46,195 bases of DNA, taken from contig JBHLQH010000028.1 of NCBI GenBank assembly GCA_048884965.1, positions 1 through 46,195 on the forward strand. The letters are read 5' to 3'. The notes under the pieces are model-generated. The model had not been told where the DNA came from. It ran no database searches and was given only the letters and a program-made list of their open reading frames with translations. The DNA is from Candidatus Thorarchaeota archaeon. GTDB lineage: Archaea; Asgardarchaeota; Thorarchaeia; Thorarchaeales; Thorarchaeaceae. Made by a program: the position numbers and the translations under genes. Below, in pieces: positions 8,920-24,157 of this stretch (the first letter of the stretch is position 1; each line of letters opens with the position of its first letter).

Positions 8920-10812
8920 CTAAATTAATTCATAGACCGAGAAATCCCTTGTTTCAAAAACAATAGGCGCATTTAGGGTTTGTAGAAACATCGACTCAAA
9001 AGCTCCTCCAGACTCATAGAAGGCCTCATTGCTACCCTTTATGCCAATAATAAATTTCATATTCAATTTCAAGAGTATAGTTTGAATTTCTGAGTCTGAA
9101 TAATTCCCTTCCATTATTTGAAACCACAGATTGCGAGGACTTAGTGGATATTTGAGCCATATGACATCAAAAGGATTCTCAATAATGCTAAATGTTGAAT
9201 TTTGAAGCACATCATCTTGATTAATATAACCTGAAATAAGAATACCTGTCCCATGTCCATCAGATAAGCAACCTACCTCTGCATATGCAGCGATACGAAC
9301 TTCAAGATAATAGTTTGAAGATATTATCATAGAATAATTCTGATCATTATTATTGTAATCTCGAATGAATTCCGCTATAGCGAGTTCTTGATCGCTAACA
9401 GATAAGGGGATAGAAATACCATTAACATCATTCGTTTGTCGCATATCACTATTCGATAGCGTGACAACTAGAATTATAATTATTACAGTAACTAACTTCA
9501 CGCGGGTTTCTGACGAAGGATTTAGTTGGAATGACTTGAAGTAAGAAGGAGAACTATGCGTGTAGATCCCTATCAAAAGCAGACTCATAAGAATGATTGG
9601 AGTCAATATTCCGTAAAGACCAATCTCACGCCAAAAAACATTGTAGAAACTGAAGAATACAGCAAATGAAGCTGCTTGAAAGAACAAGATAAGTAAGTAG
9701 GATAACCTGCTTTTCATTCTATCGAAACCATACAAAGAGAGACAGACTACAATTGGAGCTAGTATATGTCGTGAGTAAGCAGGAAGAACAAGGAAAAAAG
9801 TGAAAGGAAGGACCATCACGAGAAGGTGGAAATTGTTTGAATTCATGATCGTAGAATCATCGCTTATCCAAATCTCTCGGAGAATGCTAAATATGGAAAA
9901 TACACTCAGAAAAACAGCAGGTCCAAAAAACAGGAAGTAATCTACAAAGAAACCGACAAGACCTCGCAGAAATTCAGAGGAAATATCCGGAAGTACTGAG
10001 GCAGGAAGAGAGTTTTTCGGAGAGAATCCAAATATCGCTATTGAAGAAACAATCAAAATGGTTGCTATTGCCACGAACAAGATTACCGTGAACTTGTTTG
10101 TCCTAAGGAAAGAAAATTTGATAGTCAATTCATATCTATTTGCAAACCACGAAATGAATTTCACCATTAGAACCGCGAAAATGAAAAGTCCGAAAGCAAA
10201 AGCTGCTCGATGGAACAGCATCATCATGAACACCAGTAGCAACGAGTGAAGAAAATACTTGGTAGAATTAGTCCGATACCATTTCAGTAGACAGATAATA
10301 AACAATGGAGCTAATACAAGCATAGGAGCCCGACTTGTAGGGGTGTTGTATGTGAATTGATAGACGATTGGAAGGAACTGATAGACAAGGACACCTAGAA
10401 GCTGAATCCTCTGATCCTCGAAAAGATATCGAAATAGTAAGAAAGAGGTTACTCCTGCCAGAACACAGAAGATAACAACATAAATTGATACTGCAACCTC
10501 TAATGGAAGACCAGTAGCAAGGATTAGAGAGAATAGCAAGATTGACCCTATTGGATACCCTGAAAACGATACCATGCCTAGATATGAGAGGGGATGAACA
10601 AGCCAGAAAGAGGAAAATCCATTCAATAGATCGTTCGATTCTATTATTAGTGTAAATCCATCATAACCTTGGACGCTAGATTGCCTTGGGAGATGAAGTA
10701 TAATGCTAAGTAGAAGTACTAATGCAAAAAGGATGTAAATTTTATTTCTCTGTAGTGTTTCTAAGAATAATCCTTTTAGTTTGGATTTCTCTTGTTTCTT
10801 TGATTCATCCAT
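8920..10812 (-). CDS. Polytopic membrane protein, probable GT-C-fold glycosyltransferase
   Basis: Many TM; first loop QGYDGF...FSGYPIG; LFHR; soluble C-terminal domain starting VSDQELAIAEFI and ending DFSVYE, typical of GT-C extracellular domains. Confidence 0.5.
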   Translation of the reverse strand: MDESKKQEKSKLKGLFLETLQRNKIYILFALVLLLSIILHLPRQSSVQGYDGFTLIIESNDLLNGFSSFWLVHPLSYLGMVSFSGYPIGSILLFSLILATGLPLEVAVSIYVVIFCVLAGVTSFLLFRYLFEDQRIQLLGVLVYQFLPIVYQFTYNTPTSRAPMLVLAPLFIICLLKWYRTNSTKYFLHSLLLVFMMMLFHRAAFAFGLFIFAVLMVKFISWFANRYELTIKFSFLRTNKFTVILFVAIATILIVSSIAIFGFSPKNSLPASVLPDISSEFLRGLVGFFVDYFLFFGPAVFLSVFSIFSILREIWISDDSTIMNSNNFHLLVMVLPFTFFLVLPAYSRHILAPIVVCLSLYGFDRMKSRLSYLLILFFQAASFAVFFSFYNVFWREIGLYGILTPIILMSLLLIGIYTHSSPSYFKSFQLNPSSETRVKLVTVIIIILVVTLSNSDMRQTNDVNGISIPLSVSDQELAIAEFIRDYNNNDQNYSMIISSNYYLEVRIAAYAEVGCLSDGHGTGILISGYINQDDVLQNSTFSIIENPFDVIWLKYPLSPRNLWFQIMEGNYSDSEIQTILLKLNMKFIIGIKGSNEAFYESGGAFESMFLQTLNAPIVFETRDFSVYELI

Positions 10813-10876: not shown

Positions 10877-12898
10877 CTAATATAACTTGGGTGCCAAATT
10901 TATACGCGATATTACTTGATTAAATGAATTACCAAGACCAATTGCATCTAGATACCATTTTATTCCTTCATATCGGGGAGTGTTTTCCGACATCGACATC
11001 TCCAACCCTTTCTCACGGGTGAGAATTCCTTCTCGAATTTGATTGCTTCTGAATGTTTCATTCTCCGTAAAACCTGCCATTGAAAGATAGATGTAATTGT
11101 AGAAGGATGCAGTTCCATCTCCTATACGCCACGTAAGAGATGTGTCACTTGCGATCTCCCAATCATATTCATCGATTAGTGTCTTTGTCACTAATTCTTC
11201 ATCCCATTCAATGAAATCGTAGAGCCGAATATAATTGTGGGGGATGCCATAAAACGAGAAGAATCCAAAGAGTGTATCTAATATCGTACTATTCAGATAT
11301 CTTGGATTTCGTATGAAACTTTTCGCGTAATATGATGCGAGCATTACTTTCTTCGAAAACGATGATAGATCCTTTCCGGATTCAGTGCTGGGAGGAATAC
11401 CGCAAAATGCTGTTTTAAAATGAGTGCGTTCGTAAGGATTAGCCGAAAGAAATGCAAGCTTGATACCAGTTTGACCCATGAGCTTATTTGCATAGTAGAA
11501 GTATTGCTTATCTCCAGCCATAAAAAGTGGAATTGTACCCAAATCAGGCTTTGATAGCCAAGCTTCAACATTCTTTCTAATATTATACCGTTTCTTCGGG
11601 ATGTCCGCTGATACAAGGATGTGCTCCAATCCAAGTTTGCCACAGACACGAGCAATGTTTCTTCTTGCTAAATCGGTAACCATACCCCAATCGTATGTAT
11701 AGGTAATTGGATTCATTCCTAAGACTTCAGTAATGTAATGGACGCCGTAGGTGCTATCACGACCCCCACTAAACATAACGATACAATCCTGTTCATCTGA
11801 CTCGGTTCTGAATTTCTTTGTCACTTTGTCTAACATATCATGTCCTTTCAGTTTAATGGGATTGTATGATTTGCAATAATTGCAAACTCCTTCTTCATCA
11901 AATTCTATGAAAGGGAATGTTTCAGGAAGAATACATTTAGTACACCTTTGTAGCAAGTCTAACTTTTCCCGAGGATACAGCAAAAGAGAAGGATTATCTA
12001 TCACTGACTTACAATGTACAATGCCATATTCATACTCAGAACTCACAATTCGTTCATCAGGAATATTATCAATGATCGACCTATTTGCTCTTGCTAGTTC
12101 TATATCAGACGCCAATGGAACGGAGTCATTAATAGCAAAGCCATTTCGAGAAAGATTCTTCAAACTGATAATCTCTCCAGAATAAGGCATAATTCTTCGT
12201 ATTTTGCAGGTTCCGAAAATATCCTTCAACATGCGATTATTTTGGATTTGCTTCAAGATGTACCTTTCAGACGCGTAGATGAAAATCCCAAGGCCCTCTG
12301 TGTCAAATGTATATAATGATCCATTATTTGTGGCAACAGCTATCGAATCCAAATCCTCGAATTGCAGAATTATAGACGCGTTTCCCTTAATTATAGTCAT
12401 TGCCTGTTTCAATGCCCCTTCTAGGGAGTTTGATTGACTGAAATAATATCTAGTTAAATCCAAAAGTATCTCTGTATCAATATCGTATTCTCTTGACAAA
12501 GAGGGATATTTATCCCATAGGGAAGAAGAATTCACTATTATTCCGTTATGAACACCAACAATGCCACTCTTAACAACAGGCTGATTGTTCTCATGCTTAT
12601 TCTGACTTCCATCAGTGACCAACCGAGAATGTCCAATCAAAGAGATAGGAGATGAAATTTGCTTCTTGGAATCGAGATTCGCATCCAGAAGTGTCTTGCA
12701 CGTCTTTGTTTTGAGCATCCTAGTTGCAGGAATCGGAACTTTGTAAACGTGAATAGCGTTATCCTTTAGCAATGAAAATCCAGCCGATTCTTTCCCACGC
12801 GATTCGGACAGCTTGAATAAAGATTCTACAATCTTTCGAAATACAGAATAAGATAGATTTGATTCTTTTCCTGCGATAACGCCAATAATCCCACACAT
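10877..12898 (-). CDS. Fused class II (Ntn) glutamine amidotransferase + N-acetyl-sugar amidotransferase (WbuX/PseA-like PP-loop ATPase)
   Basis: N-terminal MCGIIG, GHSRLVT, HNGIIVN, DTE; then CTKC..CNYC and PP-loop SGGRDS, WRIGDG. Confidence 0.85.
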   Translation of the reverse strand: MCGIIGVIAGKESNLSYSVFRKIVESLFKLSESRGKESAGFSLLKDNAIHVYKVPIPATRMLKTKTCKTLLDANLDSKKQISSPISLIGHSRLVTDGSQNKHENNQPVVKSGIVGVHNGIIVNSSSLWDKYPSLSREYDIDTEILLDLTRYYFSQSNSLEGALKQAMTIIKGNASIILQFEDLDSIAVATNNGSLYTFDTEGLGIFIYASERYILKQIQNNRMLKDIFGTCKIRRIMPYSGEIISLKNLSRNGFAINDSVPLASDIELARANRSIIDNIPDERIVSSEYEYGIVHCKSVIDNPSLLLYPREKLDLLQRCTKCILPETFPFIEFDEEGVCNYCKSYNPIKLKGHDMLDKVTKKFRTESDEQDCIVMFSGGRDSTYGVHYITEVLGMNPITYTYDWGMVTDLARRNIARVCGKLGLEHILVSADIPKKRYNIRKNVEAWLSKPDLGTIPLFMAGDKQYFYYANKLMGQTGIKLAFLSANPYERTHFKTAFCGIPPSTESGKDLSSFSKKVMLASYYAKSFIRNPRYLNSTILDTLFGFFSFYGIPHNYIRLYDFIEWDEELVTKTLIDEYDWEIASDTSLTWRIGDGTASFYNYIYLSMAGFTENETFRSNQIREGILTREKGLEMSMSENTPRYEGIKWYLDAIGLGNSFNQVISRINLAPKLY

Positions 12899-14329: not shown

Positions 14330-16972
14330 TTGCATCTTTTGACGAATAGATGTGAAGCTCTTAAGGAATCTTTCAGAAACCATATTCTCCAAAAGTGGGG
14401 TTCGATTGATCCAGTGTTTCAAAGTCTCATTATATACATCGCATCTTTAGGTGGTTTCCTGTTCTTCTCAAATTTGACAGGTATATTTCTTGCTACTATT
14501 CCTAGAATTGCCTTTGGAGCAATTGCAATTCTAATTATCCCAGGGAGTTTACTAGGACAACATATCCTACCTTCTACTTTGCGAAATATTCTCTCATCTT
14601 CAATTTTGGGATTGATACTGGCGATTTTTCAAATACAAGCATTGTTTGTACTGGGTCTTGCGTTAGATATTCATGTCCCATTACTTATATGGATGGTTCT
14701 TACAAATGTGGTTCTGTTTTTGATTCTCCTAAGCAGCCATGTTCTATCCAAACAGAAAAATGAAATCAAGAGTTTCTTCGTTATAGGTTTGAATAAGACA
14801 TTACTAGGAATCATCACTGTTTCATTTTTGATAAGAATTCTCATGGCAGTTTTCAGCATTGGAGCGATCTCTCCTGATGCCTGTGTTTATGCAGATTATG
14901 CGAGATCCATGATTGACGGTGATTTCCTCACCCATGTGCAGTATGACAGTGCGGTCTATGAGTTGTGGAATGGTTTTGAATATGCATTTCATCAAGCTTT
15001 TGTGTATTTATTCGCAGTATCATGGTTACTTGCACCTCCTACAAGCTCTGGACCGATTCTTATTCTGATAATCATTGGAACGTTGCTAGTTTATTCAGTA
15101 TATGAACTCACAAAATCCTTTTTTGGAGAGATACCAGCAACTACTGTAGCGTTTATCATTTCAATTAACCCACTATATGTATTTCACTCAGCAGTGGCCT
15201 ATGGCCCTGAAATCACAAGTTTGCTATTCATCATCTTTGGAATACTACTTCTTAACCATGAAGAGGCAAATGCACCAACACAATTCCTTGCTGGACTGAT
15301 GTTTGGCTTGGTTGATGTCATTTGGTATGCAAATTTCTACATGTTGGTAATCATAATTCCAATCTTCCTTTTAATCACAAGGCGTGAGGAAAAATCAAAT
15401 CTGGTGACTGCTCTACTGGTTTTTCCAACTCTGTTTCTCGCCAGGGCTTTCTTCGATTCAGTATTATTCTTCTATTGCCTGATTGTCAGTGTACTAATTC
15501 TTTTGAGTGTCGTTTCTATCAAATCAGATAAATCAAATATGAAGTATCCTCTTGCAATCTATTGTGGAACGATATTGGTGATAATACTATGGCGAGGGAT
15601 ACTACAGACCATGCTGATTCTCACCGGAAATCCGATTGCAATACTTGTCAATCAAAGTCATTCGGTGCCTTTGATGGTTATCGTGCCGATCATTGAGTTT
15701 CTCACTTCGCCTTTTACACTTATACTCGTATTGCAGTTCATCGGATTTTCGATATTTCATATCACGCCAGCGATCCTCTTGTTCATCTTCAGTGTGATAT
15801 ATTACAGAAAAAGAGATAGAAATCTTGTTGGATTAGTTGTTCTTGGAGTGTTTGGTTTAGCTGGAACCTTCTTCGTATTTGCTTCCCTATCAGCAGCCAA
15901 AACACTGCTTGAATTAATCTATCTCTACTCAGATTCGAGATTCTTTATTTCACCCGTTTTGTTCTTCGTAATTTCTCTTGGATCTTTGTTTCAGTTCATC
16001 CTTAAGGAAGCAAATGAGATTTCATTTCGAAATGTAGTCCGGCATAGGGGGCAGAAGCAGGAAAAACAGATTTCAACAATATTGATCATCATTATGATTG
16101 GATTCGTACCTTGCTTTGCACTTACTCGAACAGGAATCGATCTGGTTCAAATAGAGAAAAGATATGCATGGCAAGGACTTGTTGATGAAATTCGGGGAAT
16201 TGGAACGGCAGATTCTTTTTACTTGGTGGAAAGAGCAGGTGAATTCACTTGGCTAACTAATAGACAAAGTATGCGAATGCGCTTTTCAGAACCCGGAATA
16301 CCATCATATCAAGCTTATAGCCATCTACTGTCCCGAGTAGAGTACTATGATTTGGATTATATAATGCTTGATCTCTACACGATAGCGCGATGGAATACGG
16401 CAATAGATTTACTTCAAAATCCCCTTGAAAAGGGTGACGCGATTCCAGCAGACGTAGACGATCTGACTCAATATATTGAGTCGAATCAAACAAAAACAAT
16501 CACATCCTTTATTCTAAGAGGGCAAACACCACCGAATTCGGAGGGCGATCATGTTCGAATCTATGAGGTAGGACTCGCAAATTATGAGATGACTGAAACT
16601 GTTGAGATTACCAATTCTAGCTGGATTGCGGGAAATGGAGGAAACTTCATTGAGTATGAAGATTACACTCATATTGCAATTGGATACAATCAGAACTATA
16701 CGTTTGTAAGAAGAGCACTAGGTCCTGATCTTAATATGGGATTGAGCCGCGGTTTTCTGGTTTTTGATTTCAAGAATGCGACTGCAACCATTGCACGTAT
16801 AGAAGTATACAATCCAAACAACGAAATAATCCAGTCTGCAATGAGGGTAGAAGATAATCTATACTACTGTATGTTGGGTAATGTAGTTGTTGGAGACATT
16901 ATCATCGTACTAGAAGGTGTCCCAGGAGATTATGCGGATTTTAACTCTGTGTCAGTATGGCAAGGCATCTGA
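14330..16972 (+). CDS. Large GT-C-like polytopic glycosyltransferase with soluble C-terminal domains
   Basis: 880 aa; N-terminal IIPG TM module, loop SPDACVYADYARSMIDG, INPLYVFHS..GPE, DSRFF; ~280 aa soluble tail; TTG start after GAGGAG. Confidence 0.6.
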   Translation: MHLLTNRCEALKESFRNHILQKWGSIDPVFQSLIIYIASLGGFLFFSNLTGIFLATIPRIAFGAIAILIIPGSLLGQHILPSTLRNILSSSILGLILAIFQIQALFVLGLALDIHVPLLIWMVLTNVVLFLILLSSHVLSKQKNEIKSFFVIGLNKTLLGIITVSFLIRILMAVFSIGAISPDACVYADYARSMIDGDFLTHVQYDSAVYELWNGFEYAFHQAFVYLFAVSWLLAPPTSSGPILILIIIGTLLVYSVYELTKSFFGEIPATTVAFIISINPLYVFHSAVAYGPEITSLLFIIFGILLLNHEEANAPTQFLAGLMFGLVDVIWYANFYMLVIIIPIFLLITRREEKSNLVTALLVFPTLFLARAFFDSVLFFYCLIVSVLILLSVVSIKSDKSNMKYPLAIYCGTILVIILWRGILQTMLILTGNPIAILVNQSHSVPLMVIVPIIEFLTSPFTLILVLQFIGFSIFHITPAILLFIFSVIYYRKRDRNLVGLVVLGVFGLAGTFFVFASLSAAKTLLELIYLYSDSRFFISPVLFFVISLGSLFQFILKEANEISFRNVVRHRGQKQEKQISTILIIIMIGFVPCFALTRTGIDLVQIEKRYAWQGLVDEIRGIGTADSFYLVERAGEFTWLTNRQSMRMRFSEPGIPSYQAYSHLLSRVEYYDLDYIMLDLYTIARWNTAIDLLQNPLEKGDAIPADVDDLTQYIESNQTKTITSFILRGQTPPNSEGDHVRIYEVGLANYEMTETVEITNSSWIAGNGGNFIEYEDYTHIAIGYNQNYTFVRRALGPDLNMGLSRGFLVFDFKNATATIARIEVYNPNNEIIQSAMRVEDNLYYCMLGNVVVGDIIIVLEGVPGDYADFNSVSVWQGI

Positions 16973-17007: not shown

Positions 17008-17997
17008 CTATACAAAACTATCAATTTGGTTTGCTGTAGGAGGTAACTCCTTAAACCATTCAATAGTCCTCTCAATGCCTTCATCAATCCCGATTTTGCT
17101 TTCCCATCCAAGTAACTTTCTTGCTTTTGATGCATCTGCACATAGTCGAAATACTTCACTTTTAGATGGACGCACTTTTGTAGCATTAAATACAATTTTT
17201 GCCGGGGAACCTGTAGCCTTTATTATTTGATTAGCTATCTCTTCAATTGTTATTTCTATTCCAGTTCCAAGATTAATTACTTCCCCAAATACACTCTTTC
17301 CCTTTGTTGCAGCTGCGATCATTCCACTAACTGTATCTCCAACATAGTTGAAATCTCGAGTAGGACGAACATCACCAAGAAATATCACATCGTTGAATAG
17401 AGCTTGAGAGATAATAGTGGGAATTACGGCGCGTACAGATTGTCGAGGGCCATATGTGTTGAAGGGCCTAATGGTTACGACGGGAGAGTCGAAAGAGCGA
17501 AAATAGCTGTATGCAACCATATCAGCGCTAATCTTACTAGCAGAATATGGCGATTGTCCTTTGAGAGGGTGGCTTTCAGAGATAGGTACTGTTTCTGCTG
17601 TGCCATAGACTTCGCTAGTCGAAGTGTGAATTATTGACTCAGTGCCTAATTCCTTTGCGGCTTCCAAGATATTGATGATGAATGAAACATTGTTGTTGAA
17701 ATATTCTCTTGGGTGAACATATGAATAGGGGATCGAAACAAGTGAAGCTAGATGAAAAACACAATCCACGTCTTTCATAGCATGTGTTACAGCTTCAGGA
17801 TTCTGCAAGTCACCATACACTATCTCTAAGTTATCCGGAAATGGTTTGAGATAATCCAAATTCCCGACATTGCCAGATGCGGTGTATCGCACGAAAGCGC
17901 GCACATTTGCATCGGATTGAAGAAGCTTTTCGACAAGATGGCTACCAATGAATCCTCCGGCACCTGTCACTAGTATTGATGAGTTCCTCAAATCCAT
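17008..17997 (-). CDS. NAD-dependent nucleotide-sugar 4,6-dehydratase/epimerase (extended SDR, LegB-like subfamily)
   Basis: TGAGGFIG, HTSTSEVYG, QSPYSASK, RPFNTYGPRQSxRAVIPTII, RPxKSEVxRL. Confidence 0.9.
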   Translation of the reverse strand: MDLRNSSILVTGAGGFIGSHLVEKLLQSDANVRAFVRYTASGNVGNLDYLKPFPDNLEIVYGDLQNPEAVTHAMKDVDCVFHLASLVSIPYSYVHPREYFNNNVSFIINILEAAKELGTESIIHTSTSEVYGTAETVPISESHPLKGQSPYSASKISADMVAYSYFRSFDSPVVTIRPFNTYGPRQSVRAVIPTIISQALFNDVIFLGDVRPTRDFNYVGDTVSGMIAAATKGKSVFGEVINLGTGIEITIEEIANQIIKATGSPAKIVFNATKVRPSKSEVFRLCADASKARKLLGWESKIGIDEGIERTIEWFKELPPTANQIDSFV

Positions 17998-18090
17998 ACT
18001 CGTTCACATCTCATTAAACCAACTCGTTGGTGCATTCTTATAATCCATTCGATATTCAAAGATAAATTCACCCGGTAGGAGTCTCTTTAC

Positions 18091-19431
18091 CTAAGAGTCC
18101 AGACCGATGATAAACCGTCGTTTTCCCCCCTTTGTTAGAGGAATCTCCTCAACTTCCTGTATTTGAAATTCAATATCAGGAAGATTGTATTCAAGTAATT
18201 TGAGTAATTCAGTTCTATCAATCCGAGTGTCTTTTTGATTTACTACCTGTACCAAAACAATTTCTGGACTTATCTGCTTAATTTGAAATTGCTTCACAAA
18301 TGGGAAAACGTAGCGAAAGATATGTCCGAATACTTCGCCGTGGACTGCATATCCAGTTGGAGATTTTATGACATCCATAGTCCGACCCTCAATGGATTGA
18401 ATAGTTGGCAGAGTTCTTCCGCATTCGCAGGTTTCATCAACATCACGAATAATATAATCGCCTACCTCATAACGAATGAATAATGTGGCGAAATTGTGCA
18501 AATCCGTTAGTATTAACCTACCTTCCTCACCAGGACCAACAGGCATACCATTCTCATCCAAGATTTCCCATACCGCAACATGGGGTAAATAATGATAATG
18601 TCCGTGTTCACATTGAAATGCCTGAGCACCGCCGTCTCGTGCTCCATATTGATCATACACAGGTGAATTGAAGGCTTTCTCTATCTTCTCTTTTTGAACC
18701 GGCCAGAGTTTCTCGGATGTCGTAAATATTGCTTCAAAACTTGGAGGAGTAATACCTTCTTTCTCCAAAAACCCAATTACTTCAGTGATACCCGAAGGTA
18801 GACCTCTAAAGAAGCGGGCTTTTGAATGATACATCTCAGAAATCATGTTTCTAATGGATTTTGGATTCATATGGAAAGTGGAGAGGCTTTTATTATCCTG
18901 TAGCCATGATCGCATAAGATTCGTGAATGTTTCCTTTATCGTACTAGGTTTTGGAAATATGGTTTCCCCAGCTACCGTTACGAGTTTATCGCCTGGACAC
19001 CATCCACCCCAAGTAAAGGATTGTAGCAGGACTCCTGAATGAAGTGACCAGTGATTCAACGATGTGCGATATTCTAGAGGTTGCCCGGTGGAGCCACTTG
19101 ATGCACACATATTATAGCGAACTGATCGCCTTGAAAAGAAATCGGCGAGGTGCTGTTTTACATATGCCTTGTCAACTATAGGTATTTTTGATAAGTCTTC
19201 AATTCCACGAATGTCAGAAGGTGTTATCTTATGCTTCTTCATGATTCGTCGATAGAAGGGAGTGAAATCGTAGGCGTACTTCACAATCCTTCGAATGAGC
19301 TGGTCTTGATTGCTCTTCATCATCTGACGCGATAAGCGTTCATGACCGACGCTGCTATAAAAAGAGTCGACTATCGTCGTTCTAAGCAGCTTATCTGCCA
19401 ATATCACTTTGGGGGGAAATCTGTACTTCAT
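18091..19431 (-). CDS. Phenylacetate-CoA-ligase-like (PaaK/CapK family) adenylate-forming enzyme
   Basis: YAYDFTPFYR, SSGSTGQP, TSEKL, DQYGARD, LTDLHNFA..IRYEVGD, IEGR, LTKGGKRR. Confidence 0.88.
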   Translation of the reverse strand: MKYRFPPKVILADKLLRTTIVDSFYSSVGHERLSRQMMKSNQDQLIRRIVKYAYDFTPFYRRIMKKHKITPSDIRGIEDLSKIPIVDKAYVKQHLADFFSRRSVRYNMCASSGSTGQPLEYRTSLNHWSLHSGVLLQSFTWGGWCPGDKLVTVAGETIFPKPSTIKETFTNLMRSWLQDNKSLSTFHMNPKSIRNMISEMYHSKARFFRGLPSGITEVIGFLEKEGITPPSFEAIFTTSEKLWPVQKEKIEKAFNSPVYDQYGARDGGAQAFQCEHGHYHYLPHVAVWEILDENGMPVGPGEEGRLILTDLHNFATLFIRYEVGDYIIRDVDETCECGRTLPTIQSIEGRTMDVIKSPTGYAVHGEVFGHIFRYVFPFVKQFQIKQISPEIVLVQVVNQKDTRIDRTELLKLLEYNLPDIEFQIQEVEEIPLTKGGKRRFIIGLDS

Positions 19432-19497
19432 TGCTGCAAATCATGCTCGTTGGAGGCACTTATTATAGTTATGCAAGATAATCGAAATATTGAACAG

Positions 19498-20745
19498 TTA
19501 GCGGTTGATAATAGAAGGTATATCATCGAAGCAGAAACTTAGTTCTTTATGTTCATCAGAGAGATCGTGCACATAACGTCTAATTACTTCTGGCTCTCTG
19601 TCTCCCGATATAGCAAAATTGATAATCTCGGCAATTTCCTTCATTTCCGATTCTTTATATCCTCTACGCGTGATTTCAGAGGTTCCAATTCTTACAAATG
19701 AGTCGACGAAAATATCACAAATTTCCAGACTACGCTTGAAGGCAAGTCCTTCTTGTTTTTTCATTGGAAGTAAAATCTGATGCGATTTGCTAATTCCATG
19801 TTGACTATTCACTATAACAGAGTATCCAAGGTTCAGTAGTTCTTGGCCAAGTGCAATCGAATTTCGTACTACCTGTTCTGCATATTCTTTACCAAATTCA
19901 AGCATTTCAAGAATGGCAAATCCCAAAGAAGCAATTCTATGTGAATGAACATTATCAACTAAGACGGTTCCTTGATGTTCTCCAAAGGGATGTTGAGAGG
20001 TTTGAATTGAGAATTGTGATACAACAGACTCGAAAATCGATTTGTCATTTCCAACAACCAAGCCTCCTTGAGGACCTGGAAAGGATTTATGTGTACTTCC
20101 AAAAAGAACAGGAATTCCTTCCTTTAGTGGGTTTTGAAATTGGGAACCTGCTATCAATCCTAAAACATGAGAACCATCAAACACCGTGAATTGCGTATCT
20201 GAAAGATGATCTTGAACTTCTGTAATAGAAATAGGATATGCTATGGCACTTGCTCCAAGTATAGTCAGTTTTGGTTTCTTGCTCTGAAAGAACTCCTCTA
20301 ATTTTGCATAGTCTAGAGACCACTCACTCCGGTCAAATGGTAGATATGCAGCCTTACGTCCAAAGTACTCAATCTGAAACGGATAACCTCCATCATCGCT
20401 CGATATGAGCGCAATTGTATCATCAATAGTTGTTAGTGAGTTGAGAGCTGCCAAATCACACAGATGACCACTGAGAGGGGCAACACATGCAAAATCGCAA
20501 TCGAATAATTCCTTGACAAGGGTTTCAACGAATGCAATTATTTTTCGATTTACTGAACTTCCACCATAAAATTCTGATGAATATCTACCGACAAGGTCAG
20601 AAGATAAAGCGGCAAGGGCATGTGTTGATAGGACATTTTCTGAAGCGACTAGATTAAGGCAGTTCTGCCGCATCTGATTATGTCTTGTAAGATATGAAGA
20701 AAGCTGTTTCATTCCTTCAAACGGAGTTCTTTCGCGATTATTCAA
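19498..20745 (-). CDS. SHMT-fold PLP-dependent enzyme (divergent; probably folate-independent)
   Basis: LNLVASEN, FDGSHVLGLIAG, PLP lysine in GSTHKSFPGPQGG, VRIGTSEITRRG. The canonical YAEG, GGHxSH and folate-loop motifs are missing. Confidence 0.85.
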   Translation of the reverse strand: MNNRERTPFEGMKQLSSYLTRHNQMRQNCLNLVASENVLSTHALAALSSDLVGRYSSEFYGGSSVNRKIIAFVETLVKELFDCDFACVAPLSGHLCDLAALNSLTTIDDTIALISSDDGGYPFQIEYFGRKAAYLPFDRSEWSLDYAKLEEFFQSKKPKLTILGASAIAYPISITEVQDHLSDTQFTVFDGSHVLGLIAGSQFQNPLKEGIPVLFGSTHKSFPGPQGGLVVGNDKSIFESVVSQFSIQTSQHPFGEHQGTVLVDNVHSHRIASLGFAILEMLEFGKEYAEQVVRNSIALGQELLNLGYSVIVNSQHGISKSHQILLPMKKQEGLAFKRSLEICDIFVDSFVRIGTSEITRRGYKESEMKEIAEIINFAISGDREPEVIRRYVHDLSDEHKELSFCFDDIPSIINR

Positions 20746-20826
20746 AGTAGAGTCGCCTATTTTGATGATAATGGAATACCCTTTAACTATTCTGACTCGT
20801 ATCGCCTTAGGAGTATTGAAGAGATA

Positions 20827-21546
20827 TTAGAAGAGGTCTTTCAACCAGGATGGACCATCATTATCATTGTCGCCTTTCGCGATTTGGAGATAATCGTTCA
20901 TACGACCAATATCCTTCCAAGGATCTTCAAATTTATATCCCATTACATGTTTCCCACTCTTTTTAGCATCAACAATGAATTGAGTCATTTGATATAAACC
21001 ATTATCAGGGATTAGACTGAGGACTTCTGGAGATACAGCATATATACCTGAATTGATCAGAAAATTAAATTGTGGCTTTTCCTTGATTTCATTTATTCCG
21101 CTTTCTTCATCGGTCGTTATGATACCATAAGGAATGGATATTTGAAAATGCTTGAGTGCAACTGTGAGCTCCGCATTCTTAGACTTGTGAAAATTTAGTA
21201 GGTCAACTAAACTCAATTTGGTTAGAATATCTGCATTCATCACAAGAAATGGATCATCAATTACCTCTTTTAATGGTAGAAGTGGGCCAGCGGTTCCGCG
21301 TTTCTCATTTTCAAAGACATACTGAATATCCACATCCATTGTAGATCCATCACCGAAATAGCTTTGAAGGATCTCAGCTTTGTAATTCACAAGCAGGAAA
21401 ACTCTCTTGAACCCTTGCTCCTTCGCGCGCGTAATATTGATTTCCAAGATGGGCTTTGAGCCTATTGGTAGCATGGGCTTTGGTACTGCATAAGTGAAGG
21501 GCCGTAGTCTTGAACCTTCACCCCCGCATAGAAATGCTATATTCAT
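20827..21546 (-). CDS. Sugar-phosphate nucleotidyltransferase
   Basis: GGEGSRLRPFT..PKPMLPIG..PILE, GTAG, MNADIL, EKP, WKDIGR. ATG 21546 preferred over the TTG at 21573. Confidence 0.92.
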   Translation of the reverse strand: MNIAFLCGGEGSRLRPFTYAVPKPMLPIGSKPILEINITRAKEQGFKRVFLLVNYKAEILQSYFGDGSTMDVDIQYVFENEKRGTAGPLLPLKEVIDDPFLVMNADILTKLSLVDLLNFHKSKNAELTVALKHFQISIPYGIITTDEESGINEIKEKPQFNFLINSGIYAVSPEVLSLIPDNGLYQMTQFIVDAKKSGKHVMGYKFEDPWKDIGRMNDYLQIAKGDNDNDGPSWLKDLF

Positions 21547-21699
21547 TAGTTGTTCCTGCAGATAGTTATACAATTACTGGATATGGTTAGGTGAGATGGT
21601 TACTGTAATATCAGTAATCTAGTACCATAGCCCGAACTCGAGAGATATTAAAATCTATGTGTATTTCATGAATTTGATAGCTCTGATTCATCTCATGAT

Positions 21700-22698
21700 T
21701 TATCCATTTTCGGTATGGTGATATTTTGTAATATATTCTGTGACCACTTGATTTATCCCATCACTCAACGAATGCTTAGGCCAAAATCCCAAAACTGCCT
21801 TGGCGCGCTCACCTAGACATCTAACGTTTTCTACCAAGGATATCGTCGGTTCTTCGTGTATGATTCTCAATGAAGGAGTCTGAAAAGCACTCAGGACCAT
21901 CCGTGCTATTTCTAAAATGGTATACGACCTATCACCACAGATATTGAGAGTAGCTCCTGCTGCCTGTTTGGTTTCGAGAGCCAAAGTAATTGCTTCTGTT
22001 ACATCCTGAATGTGGACATACGATCTGGTGCGATTACCATCTCCAAATACTATGAAGTTCTCATTTCTTAATGCAGAAGAGATGAACACCTGGAGAGGAC
22101 CTATTTCGTTAAGTTCTTGATGGGGACCATAAACATTGGTCAATCTTAATATCACGTATTCAAAATTATAGTGATTGGAGAGAGCTTGGATGTACTTCTC
22201 AGCCGCAAGCTTAGAAATACTATAGGGATTCAAGGGATTAGTTGGATGCCTTTGCTCATCGAAATCATCAAGAAAATTGCCATAAACCGCGATTGATGAA
22301 ATAAAAATAAGCCGTCGAATTCTACGTTTCTTCAATGCCGTCAGAAGACGAATTGTACCTAAAACATTCACATTTTCATAGATTAGTGGGTTCTCAAAGG
22401 ATTCTTTAATTGAGGTTATTCCAGCAGCATGAATAACCAATTCCACATCAGATGGAATGATTTTCTCAAGATCATCATCAATAAGATTACAATGTATCAG
22501 ATTAAACGAATCTGGACCAAGATGGATATGGGAAGGCAAGCTTTGTCCAGGCAAATCAAGACCATACACTTTGTAACCAGATTCTACTAGCCTCGCAGCC
22601 GTTGAAGAACCTATGAATCCACAGACGCCTGTGACAAGGACCGAGCTTTTAGAAGACATGACCGCCATCACCAAATTGGCAGATTCGTTCTGATTCAT
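21700..22698 (-). CDS. NAD-dependent epimerase/dehydratase (GalE-like SDR)
   Basis: TGVCGFIG, SSIAVYG, YSISK, NVYGP, GDG..TRSYVHI. True start may be ATG 22659 (GGTGA upstream). Confidence 0.9.
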   Translation of the reverse strand: MNQNESANLVMAVMSSKSSVLVTGVCGFIGSSTAARLVESGYKVYGLDLPGQSLPSHIHLGPDSFNLIHCNLIDDDLEKIIPSDVELVIHAAGITSIKESFENPLIYENVNVLGTIRLLTALKKRRIRRLIFISSIAVYGNFLDDFDEQRHPTNPLNPYSISKLAAEKYIQALSNHYNFEYVILRLTNVYGPHQELNEIGPLQVFISSALRNENFIVFGDGNRTRSYVHIQDVTEAITLALETKQAAGATLNICGDRSYTILEIARMVLSAFQTPSLRIIHEEPTISLVENVRCLGERAKAVLGFWPKHSLSDGINQVVTEYITKYHHTENG

Positions 22699-22852: not shown

Positions 22853-24157
22853 TTGACCAGATTCGCAGAGATCAATGACAGGATTGATAGAAAAATAGCG
22901 AGGGTATGTGTTTTAGGTTTGGGATATATTGGACTACCAACTGCCCTCTTCTATGCGGAGAAAGGGTTACAGGTTATCGGTCTTGATACAAATGATGAAC
23001 TTGTCGACAATCTACGAAAAGGCCGCATTTACATGGAAGAAGATGGATTGGAAGAACTGGCCAACCGTAATCTTCCGAAAATAGAGCTCTTTACATCCTA
23101 TGAGGATATTACTGATATTGATGTATATGTTGCATGTTTACCAAGTCCTGTCACTCGTGAAAAGACAGTGGTATTGCGATATATCGAAGACTCGATATCT
23201 CAAATTGGGAAACGTGCTGATAAGGGAGGGCTCATCCTAATTGAGAGTACAGTACCGATTGGCACTACTGAAAGGCTGGGAAAGCTCTTCACAGAAGAGA
23301 GTGGGTTTGAAATTGACAAAGACTTCTGGATAGCTCACTGTCCAGAAAGAGTTCTACCAAGTAAAGTTGTAGAAGAAATGAGGAAAAACCCTCGATTGGT
23401 TGGAGGAGCCACAAATCAGTCCACTGAGCTTGCGGCTATTTTCTTGTCATCTGTCTATAGTGAAGGACTGATTCATAAGACTTCTTCAAAGGTGTCAGAA
23501 GCTGCGAAATTAGCTGAGAATTCTTTCAGAGATGTGAACGTAGCATTTGCTAATGAATTGGCATGTATTTGTGCCGAACTCCAAATTGATGTGACAGAGG
23601 TAATTAAGCTCGCCAACCTTCATCCGCGAGTGAATATTCTCAATCCAGGAATAGGTGTTGGAGGTTATTGTCTACCAAAAGATGGTTGGCTATTGGTGCA
23701 ATCTATAAGAGAAGGCTCATTCATACCGGTTCTTATTCCAGCAGCCAGAGATATCAATGATAGTATGCCAAACTATGTTTTCAAGCAAATACAAAGGATA
23801 AGCAACGATACATTTTCCCTGAAACCTGCAGTAGGTCTCTTGGGACTCAGTTTCAAAGCAAATGTATCAGATACAAGAAATAGTCCATCAATTGAACTTG
23901 TACATCTACTTCTTGATGCAGGAATAGATGTCATTGTTTTCGATCCATATGTAGATAGAGACTTTGGTGGGAAAAGAGCTTCTTCTTTGGATGAAGTACT
24001 AAATCAATGCAATATTATCATTCTGGGAGTGGCGCACGATATTTTACTTAAGGACCTAAAAGAACGTGATTTGAGTTCGAAAACCATCTTCGACCCAAAT
24101 GGTTCACTTCATGATTTCAAAGCAAAAATCGGAACGTATCATGGGACCTCGGTTTGA
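22853..24157 (+). CDS. Nucleotide-sugar 6-dehydrogenase (UDP-N-acetyl-D-mannosamine dehydrogenase-like)
   Basis: GLGYIGLP, ESTVPIGTT, AHCPERVLP, HPRVNILNPG.GVGGYCLPKD, GLSFKANVSDTRNSP; TTG start with GGAGG. Confidence 0.92.
   Translation: MTRFAEINDRIDRKIARVCVLGLGYIGLPTALFYAEKGLQVIGLDTNDELVDNLRKGRIYMEEDGLEELANRNLPKIELFTSYEDITDIDVYVACLPSPVTREKTVVLRYIEDSISQIGKRADKGGLILIESTVPIGTTERLGKLFTEESGFEIDKDFWIAHCPERVLPSKVVEEMRKNPRLVGGATNQSTELAAIFLSSVYSEGLIHKTSSKVSEAAKLAENSFRDVNVAFANELACICAELQIDVTEVIKLANLHPRVNILNPGIGVGGYCLPKDGWLLVQSIREGSFIPVLIPAARDINDSMPNYVFKQIQRISNDTFSLKPAVGLLGLSFKANVSDTRNSPSIELVHLLLDAGIDVIVFDPYVDRDFGGKRASSLDEVLNQCNIIILGVAHDILLKDLKERDLSSKTIFDPNGSLHDFKAKIGTYHGTSV

What the first reader, a model, noticed from the sequence alone, without database searches (positions are those of the whole stretch)
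17008..22698. Candidate undescribed glycan-tailoring module: SDR, nucleotidyltransferase, folate-less SHMT-fold enzyme, adenylating ligase, LegB-like dehydratase
Seen: five co-oriented genes, with a PLP enzyme and a PaaK/CapK-type ligase placed between a nucleotidyltransferase and a dehydratase. No DegT/LegC aminotransferase or acetyltransferase is in the window. Known: CapK-like ligases recur in polysaccharide loci; uronic acids in archaeal N-glycans can be amidated with amino acids (Thr in Methanococcus maripaludis); SHMT-fold transaldolases such as LipK extend sugar aldehydes. Inference, option 1: the PLP enzyme makes an unusual hydroxy-amino acid or amine that the ligase attaches to a sugar, e.g. 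a uronate from the three 6-dehydrogenases. Option 2: it condenses an amino-acid unit onto an NDP-keto-sugar, giving a branched or higher-carbon amino sugar.
Basis: partly seen in the sequence, partly recalled or inferred. Interest (0 to 1): 0.8.

Follow-up and report, generated by a model that had tools for sequence, protein, structure and literature searches.

The report
Folate-less SHMT-fold enzyme in Asgard sugar operon
An Asgard archaeon's surface-sugar gene cluster holds a rare, remodelled relative of serine hydroxymethyltransferase that always sits beside a sugar 4,6-dehydratase, where related clusters carry an ordinary aminotransferase, so it probably performs an undescribed sugar-tailoring step whose chemistry is not yet known.

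Summary
Five co-oriented minus-strand genes at 17008-22698 encode an SDR, a sugar-1-P nucleotidyltransferase, a divergent SHMT-fold PLP enzyme, a PaaK-like adenylating ligase and a LegB-like dehydratase. They lie in a large Asgard (Thorarchaeia-like) glycan locus with no DegT aminotransferase or PglD-like acetyltransferase.

The PLP enzyme keeps its PLP and amino-acid-carboxylate residues but lacks SHMT's catalytic Glu57 loop and Asn347 folate loop. It belongs to a small clade marked by an active-site insert: 4 of 400 Asgard genomes, and 2-3 clusters among 1.84 billion representatives. Related genomes also carry a canonical SHMT.

Clade members share a contig with a LegB-like dehydratase in 5 of 5 contigs. 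Sister LegB-NTase cassettes in related genomes carry DegT instead, and the LegB tree splits along that line. An adenylate-forming enzyme recurs: a PaaK-like ligase here and in sister clade B, or a Cys-less AsnB-like enzyme elsewhere.

Best reading: a new folate-independent PLP step on the NDP-4-keto-6-deoxy sugar, with the carboxylate or amine then processed by the ligase. C-C glycyl addition, transamination and free amino-acid supply cannot be told apart computationally. No paper found describes such a module.

The parts
21700..22698 (-). Extended SDR (332 aa), GalE/RmlB-like, first gene of the run. It may be an epimerase or a 4-ketoreductase.
   Evidence: PF01370 183 bits. Best PDB hits are UDP-glucose 4-epimerases 7ys8 and 4zrm. 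A 34%-identical SDR lies in L002 and a 25%-identical one in L171.
20827..21573 (-). Sugar-1-phosphate nucleotidyltransferase (248 aa), probably guanylyl- or uridylyl-transferase.
   Evidence: PF00483 140 bits. Best NCBIfam hits are mannose-1-P guanylyltransferase and archaeal GlmU N-domain, none above cut-off. PDB hits are 8x7s and 7x8j. Orthologs at 52-62% identity sit next to LegB-like genes in relatives.
19498..20745 (-). Divergent SHMT-fold PLP enzyme (415 aa), clade A of the short-loop SHMT-like superfamily.
   Evidence: PF00464 110.6 bits. Best PDB hit is M. jannaschii SHMT at 188 bits. AF2 model pLDDT 86; Foldseek TM 0.87 to 4uqv and 0.85 to ObiH 7k34. Clade support is 100 in the tree.
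20560..20586 (-). Shortened loop 'RYSSEFYGG', where SHMT has YAEGYPGKRYYGG. The catalytic Glu57 is missing.
   Evidence: The relatives' canonical SHMT keeps 'RYAEGWPGERVYAG'.
20083..20097 (-). S-T-H-K-S motif with the PLP lysine, Lys220.
   Evidence: Asp190, His193, His219 and Arg352 (E. coli D200, H203, H228, R363) are also invariant.
19951..20016 (-). Clade-specific insert 'QFSIQTSQHPFGEHQGTVLVDN' at the active-site entrance, aligned to the E. coli 255-264 region.
   Evidence: The P253/F254 columns are present in 14-15 of 15 clade-A sequences; F254 is in all 5 clade-B sequences. These columns are gaps in 92 of 92 other short-loop proteins. pLDDT is low here.
18091..19431 (-). PaaK-like (COG1541/CapK-type) adenylate-forming ligase (446 aa).
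   Evidence: NCBIfam FlxY, DVU1553 and PaaK at about 95-109 bits, all below cut-off. PDB 4r1l and 9s3l. An SSGSTG motif is visible in the alignment. Only one homolog exceeds 50% identity.
17008..17997 (-). LegB-like NDP-hexose 4,6-dehydratase (329 aa).
   Evidence: TIGR04180 400.1 bits (cut-off 475), next model 175. Orthologs at 61-67% identity form LegB-NTase-DegT cassettes in relatives.
10877..12898 (-). Context gene: AsnB-type glutamine amidotransferase (673 aa) with the N-terminal Cys ('MCGIIG'). It is probably a uronate amidase-forming enzyme. It is not homologous to the AsnB-like gene next to the SHMT-like gene in L002.
22853..24157 (+). Context gene: UDP-glucose/GDP-mannose 6-dehydrogenase, divergent from the five-gene run. 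Two more lie at 37-891 and 1014-2360.

Best explanation
The five genes form a nucleotide-sugar tailoring module of an Asgard surface-glycan locus. Shown: gene identities, family features and the co-occurrence patterns. Inferred pathway: the NTase makes an NDP-hexose (probably GDP- or UDP-HexNAc). The LegB-like SDR oxidises and dehydrates it to an NDP-4-keto-6-deoxy sugar. The SHMT-fold PLP enzyme, which has lost the folate machinery but kept the glycine/PLP machinery, then acts on that keto sugar, in the pathway slot that a DegT aminotransferase fills in sister cassettes. The chemistry I think most likely is folate-independent aldol-type addition of a PLP-stabilised glycyl carbanion (from Gly, Ser or Thr) to the C4 carbonyl. 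This would give a C-4-branched glycyl (beta-hydroxy-alpha-amino acid) sugar. The adjacent adenylate-forming ligase would then convert the new carboxylate to an amide; in other loci a Cys-less AsnB-like enzyme would do this. The extra SDR epimerises or reduces another position or another sugar. I put coupling of the PLP enzyme to the dehydratase pathway at about 0.65. I put the specific C-C chemistry at about 0.3-0.35.
For: 1. Active site. The PLP Lys220, Asp190, His193, His219, the carboxylate-binding Arg352, Ser35, Tyr55 and Tyr60 are invariant. Glu57 with its loop and the Asn347 folate loop are deleted, and His126 is replaced by Tyr. All characterised SHMT-family enzymes do C-alpha/C-beta aldol chemistry, including sugar-aldehyde extension by LipK (PMC5490192).
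2. Paralog status. Related genomes carry a canonical SHMT as well. True orthologs occur in only 4 of 400 Asgard genomes.
3. Dehydratase linkage. A LegB-like gene shares the contig in 5 of 5 clade-A contigs: within 0-1 genes in the window, L002 and L171, and three NCBI accessions away on the P0006 contig. This holds despite different gene orders and in two archaeal classes.
4. Swap with DegT. Orthologous LegB-NTase cassettes (61-67% identity) in five same-family genomes carry DegT, whereas SHMT-bearing loci have none. In the LegB tree, the 4 SHMT-linked proteins fall in one clade (support 94) and the 5 DegT-linked proteins fall in its sister (support 99).
5. Independent lineage. G071's LegB-like protein groups with its own class-mate G081, not with the Thor proteins, yet it has the SHMT-like gene adjacent.
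6. Adenylating partner. A carboxylate-adenylating enzyme recurs: the ligase in the window; the ligase adjacent in clade B; and a Cys-less AsnB-like enzyme adjacent in L002 and 4 genes away in L171.
7. Clade-specific insert at the active-site mouth.
Against: No biochemical data exist. Only three loci could be read in full; two more rest on contig-length and accession fingerprints. The Thor/Sif cases may trace to a single ancestral event. Aldol addition to a ketone is unusual for this family, which uses aldehydes. A second SDR in every locus is unexplained if C4 is consumed. The PglD-like acetyltransferase in L171 fits a 4-amino sugar at least as well. The ligase is absent from two of three readable clade-A loci. 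The LegB-like protein is below the TIGR04180 cut-off, and its PDB neighbours include 4-epimerases and 5,6-dehydratases, so the 4-keto-6-deoxy product is inferred from the DegT-linked orthologs. Whether clade B has a dehydratase nearby is unknown.
Confidence: 0.35

Rival explanations
1. Free amino-acid supply. The SHMT-fold enzyme works as a folate-independent aldolase or transaldolase that makes or interconverts a free beta-hydroxy-alpha-amino acid. The adenylating enzyme (PaaK-like ligase, or Cys-less AsnB-like) amide-links that amino acid to a uronic acid made by the locus's 6-dehydrogenases. LegB-like, NTase and SDR would be an independent 6-deoxyhexose branch.
For: An adenylate-forming enzyme is adjacent or near in every readable locus and in clade B. 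The AsnB-like partners lack the glutaminase Cys, so they must use another amine. Three UGDH genes are in the window. Uronic acids amidated with threonine are known in Methanococcus N-glycans (PMC11407970). LegB-NTase-SDR cassettes without any PLP enzyme exist in other Asgard genomes, and each SHMT locus also has an SDR.
Against: It does not explain why the gene always sits by a LegB-like dehydratase, in two separate LegB lineages, nor why it alternates with DegT in sister cassettes. Common amino acids need no dedicated enzyme, and no aldehyde-supplying gene is evident. L002 and L171 show no UGDH within the contigs read.
Confidence: 0.25
2. Aminotransferase surrogate. The SHMT-fold enzyme has become a C4 aminotransferase that replaces DegT/LegC and gives an NDP-4-amino-4,6-dideoxy sugar. 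The amine is then N-acylated by the ligase (window), by the AsnB-like enzyme (L002), or by the PglD-like acetyltransferase (L171).
For: It occupies exactly the slot of DegT in orthologous cassettes. L171 has a PglD-like N-acetyltransferase (PglD_N plus hexapeptide) three genes away, with no DegT on the 25.7 kb contig. The PLP-stacking His is replaced by Tyr. SHMTs are known to do slow half-transamination (my own background knowledge).
Against: No physiological aminotransferase is known in the SHMT family. Direct N-acylation of an amino sugar by PaaK-like or AsnB-like enzymes has no precedent that I know of. It gives no reason to replace a working DegT. G000 has one DegT elsewhere, on C11.
Confidence: 0.2
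3. Ordinary or housekeeping SHMT or threonine aldolase that merely lies in the glycan island, possibly the genome's only SHMT.
For: It is the only PF00464 match in G000, which is 95.7% complete. The wider short-loop superfamily sits in non-glycan contexts.
Against: Glu57 and the folate loop are missing. Every relative, including G071 and G347 which carry an ortholog, also has a canonical SHMT, so its absence in G000 is most simply an assembly gap. Orthologs are present in only 4 of 400 genomes and are always in glycan loci.
Confidence: 0.05
4. Hydroxymethyl transfer to the sugar. Serine is cleaved and the C1 unit is captured by the C3 or C5 enolate of the 4-keto sugar, which would bind where folate binds in SHMT. 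This gives a C-hydroxymethyl-branched sugar, whose 4-keto group the extra SDR then reduces.
For: It explains the loss of the folate site, the new insert there, the link to the dehydratase, and the SDR found in each locus.
Against: There is no precedent. It leaves the recurrent adenylating enzyme without a role.
Confidence: 0.05

Closest known systems
Archaeal serine hydroxymethyltransferase (M. jannaschii SHMT, PDB 4bhd/4uqv)
   Same: It is the best sequence match (188 bits) and the best structural match (TM 0.83-0.87). Both share the fold-type I PLP fold, the T-H-K lysine, the PLP-binding Asp and His, and the carboxylate-binding Arg.
   Different: The window's enzyme lacks the catalytic Glu and its loop, and the Asn347 folate/pterin loop. 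It has Tyr instead of the stacking His, and a roughly 10-residue clade-specific insert at the active-site mouth. It scores below the NCBIfam SHMT cut-off. It is a rare accessory paralog in glycan loci.
L-threonine transaldolases (LipK, ObiH/ObaG, fluorothreonine transaldolase)
   Same: These are SHMT-fold, folate-independent enzymes that join a glycyl unit to a carbonyl. LipK does so on a sugar-derived (nucleoside 5') aldehyde (PMC5490192). The fold TM is 0.85 to ObiH 7k34.
   Different: Sequence similarity is only 80 bits to 7k34, and 167 bits against a cut-off of 650 for TIGR04506. The window's enzyme derives from the archaeal SHMT branch, not from the bacterial TTA clade. TTA genes sit in antibiotic clusters, not in NDP-sugar/glycan loci. 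The presumed acceptor here would be a ketone on an NDP-sugar.
LegB-PtmE-LegC (or PglF-PglE-PglD) route to 4-amino-4,6-dideoxy-HexNAc
   Same: An NTase and a LegB-like dehydratase are present. Orthologous cassettes in relatives have the expected DegT aminotransferase. L171 also has a PglD-like acetyltransferase.
   Different: There is no DegT here; an SHMT-fold enzyme plus an adenylating ligase sit in its place. The LegB-like protein is below the TIGR04180 cut-off. No NeuB, LegG or LegF genes are in the window. The genome's NeuB/CMP-transferase pair lies on another contig with its own PseB-like dehydratase.
CapK/PaaK-like ligases of polysaccharide loci, and AsnB-like amidotransferases (WbpS-type)
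   Same: These are ATP-dependent carboxylate-adenylating enzymes that recur in glycan clusters. The ANL core motif is present.
   Different: The ligase scores far below the PaaK cut-off (67.8, cut-off 646). Its substrate is unknown. Its pairing with an SHMT-fold enzyme was not found described in the literature searched.

Membership tests
Serine hydroxymethyltransferase (EC 2.1.2.1; PF00464 / NF000586) | SHMT fold and Pfam domain above the gathering score | tested here: met
   PF00464 110.6 bits against 27. Foldseek TM 0.83-0.87 to SHMT structures.
Serine hydroxymethyltransferase (EC 2.1.2.1; PF00464 / NF000586) | Score above the NCBIfam SHMT cut-off | tested here: not met
   NF000586 209.8 bits against a cut-off of 335.
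Serine hydroxymethyltransferase (EC 2.1.2.1; PF00464 / NF000586) | PLP lysine (T-H-K) and PLP/carboxylate ligands (E. coli D200, H203, H228, K229, R363, S35, Y55, Y65) | tested here: met
   All are conserved as D190, H193, H219, K220, R352, S35, Y55 and Y60.
Serine hydroxymethyltransferase (EC 2.1.2.1; PF00464 / NF000586) | Catalytic Glu57 and folate-binding elements (Tyr64 loop, Asn347 loop) and stacking His126 | tested here: not met
   Glu57 and the 5-residue loop are deleted. Residues 346-357 are deleted. His126 is replaced by Tyr121. The relatives' canonical SHMT keeps these features.
L-threonine transaldolase (TIGR04506; LipK/ObiH type) | Score above the family cut-off, or closest similarity to characterised TTAs | tested here: not met
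   TIGR04506 167.4 bits against 650. ObiH 7k34 scores 80 bits against 188 bits for archaeal SHMT. No tree including TTA sequences was built.
L-threonine transaldolase (TIGR04506; LipK/ObiH type) | Folate-independent glycyl transfer to a carbonyl acceptor | not testable with these tools
   This needs an enzyme assay. Only the loss of folate determinants is shown.
LegB NAD-dependent 4,6-dehydratase (TIGR04180) | Score above the curated cut-off | tested here: not met
   400.1 bits against 475. It is still by far the best model; the next scores 175.
LegB NAD-dependent 4,6-dehydratase (TIGR04180) | Pathway context: a partner NTase and a DegT (LegC) aminotransferase | tested here: inconclusive
   An NTase is present in the run. 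DegT is absent from the window but present next to orthologs at 61-67% identity in five relatives.
Phenylacetate-CoA ligase PaaK (TIGR02155) | Score above the cut-off | tested here: not met
   67.8 bits against 646.3. The haloarchaeal PaaK model gives 94 against 700.
ANL/PaaK-like adenylate-forming superfamily | Homology to solved PaaK-like ligases and the SSGSTG phosphate-binding motif | tested here: met
   PDB 4r1l (75.7 bits) and 9s3l (65 bits), with the motif visible in the alignment. Precomputed PF27533 on all homologs.
DegT/DnrJ/EryC1 sugar aminotransferase (PF01041) | Pfam domain match in the PLP enzyme or anywhere in the window | tested here: not met
   The 415 aa protein has no PF01041 hit. 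tblastn with the genome's own DegT finds nothing in the window.
Sugar-1-phosphate nucleotidyltransferase (PF00483) | Pfam domain above the gathering score | tested here: met
   140.2 bits against 21.2. The nucleotide and sugar specificity is not resolved, because no equivalog cut-off is reached.

The most novel reading that the evidence does not exclude
An SHMT-fold PLP enzyme that has traded its folate site for an NDP-sugar site forms a C-C bond between a glycine-derived carbanion and C4 of an NDP-4-keto-6-deoxyhexose. The result would be a branched-chain amino-acid sugar that an adenylating ligase then amidates. This would be a new route to branched or higher-carbon sugars in Asgard archaeal surface glycans, and the first SHMT-family enzyme acting on a nucleotide sugar.
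Probability: 0.3. Interest if true: 0.85.

Novelty: new variant of a known kind. Interest (0 to 1): 0.62.

Why it matters
Asgard archaea are the closest known relatives of eukaryotes, and the chemistry of their surface and N-linked glycans is almost unknown. If the SHMT-fold enzyme works on a nucleotide sugar, by either C-C bond formation or amination, it adds a new reaction type to NDP-sugar tailoring. It would also extend the catalytic range of a textbook enzyme family. It gives a concrete five-protein system that can be reconstituted in vitro, and it predicts an unusual sugar mass to look for in Asgard glycoproteomics. Separately, it points to a large folate-site-less SHMT paralog family across archaea whose function is open.

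Tried and rejected
The contigs of P0002, P0010, P0015 and of clade B could therefore not be read. I used contig-length and NCBI-accession fingerprints instead.
2. The genome contigs and metagenome-contig scans with family alignments returned almost only the 35-44% identical short-loop paralogs. Just two true orthologs were found (L002, L003).
3. tblastn of all window proteins against about 160 such loci found only a Bathyarchaeia-specific synteny with UGDH and NTase 6-9 kb away. I discounted this as lineage-specific gene order, because the adjacent genes are tRNA-wyosine, translin and similar.
4. Neighbour clustering of the superfamily gave no cross-lineage partner, so the parent family's function stays unknown.
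5. A second Asgard class search re-sampled the same genomes.
6. Literature searches for SHMT with 4-keto sugars or O-antigen clusters, and for CapK/PaaK in polysaccharides, found nothing relevant.
7. The search of earlier findings returned only a note on this same stretch.
8. The idea that LegB-like feeds a legionaminic-acid pathway using the lone DegT on C11 was set aside. That DegT sits among unrelated genes, and the genome's NeuB/CMP-transferase pair has its own PseB-like dehydratase on C71.
9. The window's AsnB-like gene (10877-12898) is not the counterpart of the AsnB-like gene next to the SHMT-like gene in L002.
10. No complex prediction was run, because no binding claim is made.

Full report
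**What is there**

The window is contig C28 of a 4.09 Mb assembly, 95.7% complete. Its closest protein relatives come from Thorarchaeota, Sifarchaeia and other Asgard MAGs.

Positions 1 to about 35,000 form one large glycan locus:
- three UDP-glucose/GDP-mannose 6-dehydrogenases;
- about nine glycosyltransferases, including a GT87;
- two Wzx-type flippases;
- a glutamine-dependent AsnB-type amidotransferase;
- a second NTase.

Four Pfam-less proteins have 10-20 hydrophobic segments each. GC content rises from about 0.38-0.41 to 0.47-0.50 beyond about 36 kb.

Inside this locus, five minus-strand ORFs are separated by 66-126 bp. In transcription order they are:
- SDR (21700-22698);
- sugar-1-P nucleotidyltransferase (20827-21573);
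- SHMT-fold PLP enzyme (19498-20745);
- PaaK-like adenylating ligase (18091-19431);
- LegB-like dehydratase (17008-17997).

These identifications rest. The window holds no DegT aminotransferase and no PglD-type acetyltransferase.

**The PLP enzyme**

It scores only 110.6 bits on Pfam SHMT and 209.8 bits on NCBIfam SHMT, below the cut-off of 335. Its nearest solved relative is the M. jannaschii SHMT (188 bits; Foldseek TM 0.83-0.87). The threonine transaldolase ObiH scores 80 bits with TM 0.85. The AlphaFold model is confident, with pLDDT 86.

I aligned it to E. coli GlyA, to a relative's canonical SHMT, and to 116 homologs. The residues that hold PLP and the amino-acid carboxylate are all kept: Ser35, Tyr55, Tyr60 (=Y65), Asp190 (=D200), His193 (=H203), His219-Lys220 (=H228-K229) and Arg352 (=R363).

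Three SHMT features are lost. The Glu57-bearing loop is deleted ('RYSSEFYGG', against 'RYAEGWPGERVYAG' in the relative's SHMT). The Asn347 folate loop (346-357) is deleted. The stacking His126 is replaced by Tyr. 'Folate-less' is therefore a fair description.

These losses are shared by a large 'short-loop' SHMT-like superfamily in Heimdall-type Asgard archaea, Bathyarchaeia, Thermoplasmata and others. That superfamily lies in non-glycan neighbourhoods. It co-exists with a canonical SHMT in the same genomes.

The window's protein belongs to a well-supported subclade A (15 sequences, support 100). Its neighbours are a small clade B and a Kariarchaeaceae group. Clades A and B alone carry an insert at the active-site mouth, 'QFSIQTSxHPFGxHxGT(I/V)LVDN'. 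The insert columns are gaps in 92 of 92 other members.

The clade is rare. True orthologs occur in 4 of 400 Asgard genomes. Only about 2-3 representatives appear among 1.84 billion 50%-identity clusters before scores fall to the general superfamily.

**Neighbourhoods**

Three clade-A loci could be read.
- Window: SDR, NTase, SHMT-like, ligase, LegB-like.
- L002 (same genus): SDR, then a flippase, then SHMT-like, AsnB-like, LegB-like (69% identity) and NTase (62%).
- L171 (a Heimdall-class genome, G071): AsnB-like, an unknown gene, a GT, LegB-like (52%), SHMT-like (51%), SDR, an unknown gene, and a PglD-like acetyltransferase.

Two more cases rest on fingerprints. SHMT-like P0006 (MFW9964000) and LegB-like P0245 (MFW9964003) share an 18,360 bp Sifarchaeia contig. 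P0008 and P0250 share a 19,482 bp Thorarchaeota contig. So a LegB-like dehydratase accompanies the enzyme in 5 of 5 contigs.

None of the three readable loci has a DegT.

I then asked what sits beside LegB-like orthologs where the SHMT-like gene is absent; 24 of 400 Asgard genomes have such an ortholog. In five same-family genomes, the orthologous cassette is LegB, NTase, DegT (61-67% identity). In more distant genomes it is LegB, NTase, SDR.

In a tree of LegB-like proteins, the four Thor/Sif SHMT-linked proteins fall in one clade (support 94). The five DegT-linked proteins fall in its sister (support 99). G071's LegB-like protein groups with its own class-mate G081, whose cassette lacks the SHMT-like gene. 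The pairing therefore arose or persisted in at least two LegB lineages. These genomes are related, so the counts are not independent events. Still, the pattern is what functional coupling predicts.

**The adenylating partner**

The PaaK-like ligase has only one homolog above 50% identity, and it is absent from L002 and L171.

In clade B, however, the SHMT-like protein P0021 (MBA7472574) is followed directly by a PaaK-like ligase, P0167 (MBA7472575). P0018 and P0150 share an 11,289 bp contig, and their cluster members share a 4,297 bp contig.

In L002 the adjacent gene is an AsnB-like protein; L171 has one four genes away. The two are distant homologs of each other (22% identity, E 5e-35). Both lack the N-terminal glutaminase cysteine, so they cannot draw ammonia from glutamine in the usual way. 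The window's own AsnB-type gene has 'MCGIIG' and is unrelated to them.

The recurring unit is therefore a clade-A/B SHMT-fold enzyme, a carboxylate-adenylating enzyme, and a LegB-like dehydratase, usually with an NTase and a second SDR.

**Mechanism**

Shown: the fold, the retained glycine/PLP machinery, the lost folate machinery, the clade-specific insert, and the gene associations.

Inferred: the LegB-like enzyme makes an NDP-4-keto-6-deoxy sugar, because its orthologs are wired to DegT aminotransferases. The SHMT-fold enzyme uses that intermediate.

Every characterised member of the SHMT family performs C-alpha/C-beta aldol chemistry through a glycyl quinonoid, and LipK does this on a sugar-derived aldehyde (PMC5490192). 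I therefore favour addition of a glycyl unit to the C4 carbonyl, followed by adenylation and amidation of the new carboxylate. I put this at about 0.3-0.35.

The rivals are these:
- Transamination, i.e. a DegT surrogate. The PglD-like acetyltransferase in L171 fits this best. About 0.2.
This fits the ligase but not the dehydratase link. About 0.25.
- Hydroxymethyl transfer to a sugar enolate. About 0.05.
- An ordinary housekeeping role. About 0.05, despite G000 lacking a canonical SHMT hit, which I read as an assembly gap.

Sequence analysis cannot separate the first three.

**Comparison with known systems, and novelty**

By the membership tests above, the enzyme is neither an SHMT proper nor a member of the bacterial threonine-transaldolase clade. 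The locus resembles the LegB-PtmE-LegC route but lacks LegC. Searches of the paper library found no description of an SHMT-family enzyme in an NDP-sugar pathway.

I class this as a new variant of a known kind: a neofunctionalised SHMT-fold enzyme in a glycan-tailoring module. The evidence that the module is real is good. The evidence for its chemistry is only circumstantial. Interest 0.62.

**Limits**

Two linkages rest on contig-length and accession fingerprints. All trees were made with FastTree. No experiment is available.

Noticed in passing
whole genome G000 (window = C28): The window's divergent gene is the only PF00464 match in this 95.7%-complete assembly. In contrast, 29 of the 31 genomes searched (G000 included) have a PF00464 match, and nearly all relatives have a canonical SHMT at about 225-290 bits. 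This is probably an assembly gap, but it is worth checking.
   Followed up: partly
loci L004-L161, e.g. L022:9989-11179 and L173:9939-11156: A large archaeal 'short-loop' SHMT-like superfamily (Heimdall-type Asgard, Bathyarchaeia, Thermoplasmata, Nitrososphaeria and some bacteria) lacks Glu57 and the Asn347 folate loop and has Tyr for His126. It co-exists with a canonical SHMT and sits in non-glycan contexts. Its function is unknown, and neighbour clustering found only lineage-specific synteny.
   Followed up: partly
window 10877-12898 (-); L002:10858-12696; L171:12075-13889: The window's AsnB-type gene has the glutaminase Cys ('MCGIIG') and probably amidates a uronate. The AsnB-like genes beside the SHMT-like gene in L002 and L171 lack that Cys and are unrelated to the window's gene. 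This suggests ligases that use an amine other than glutamine-derived ammonia.
   Followed up: partly
window 2562-4205, 4279-6015, 8920-10812, 14330-16972: Four large ORFs (547-880 aa) have no Pfam hit and 10-20 hydrophobic segments each. They are probably polymerase, ligase or GT-C type membrane proteins of the glycan pathway.
   Followed up: no
window about 36000: GC content steps from about 0.38-0.41 across the glycan locus to 0.47-0.50 in the flanking housekeeping genes (adenylosuccinate-lyase-like, ABC-2 transporter, amidohydrolase). The glycan locus looks like a low-GC variable island.
   Followed up: no
G000 contig C71 (L230:3-2662): A PseB/PglF-type dehydratase (cut by the contig end), a CMP-sugar cytidylyltransferase and a NeuB-type synthase lie together. 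The genome therefore likely also makes a nonulosonic acid, independently of the window's LegB-like gene. The genome's single DegT is on C11, among unrelated genes.
   Followed up: partly
L171:415-2088 and L175:814-2007 (G071 contig C219): DDE transposase genes flank the G071 glycan segment that carries the LegB-like/SHMT-like pair. A 568 aa AMP-binding enzyme lies just beyond one of them. This is consistent with mobility of the segment.
   Followed up: no
L016, L021-L023, L026, L033, L094 and others: In Bathyarchaeia, the short-loop SHMT-like gene keeps a fixed distance (6-9 kb) from a UGDH-like and an NTase gene. The genes directly adjacent to it are tRNA-wyosine and translin genes, so I read this as conserved gene order rather than a functional link.
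   Followed up: partly
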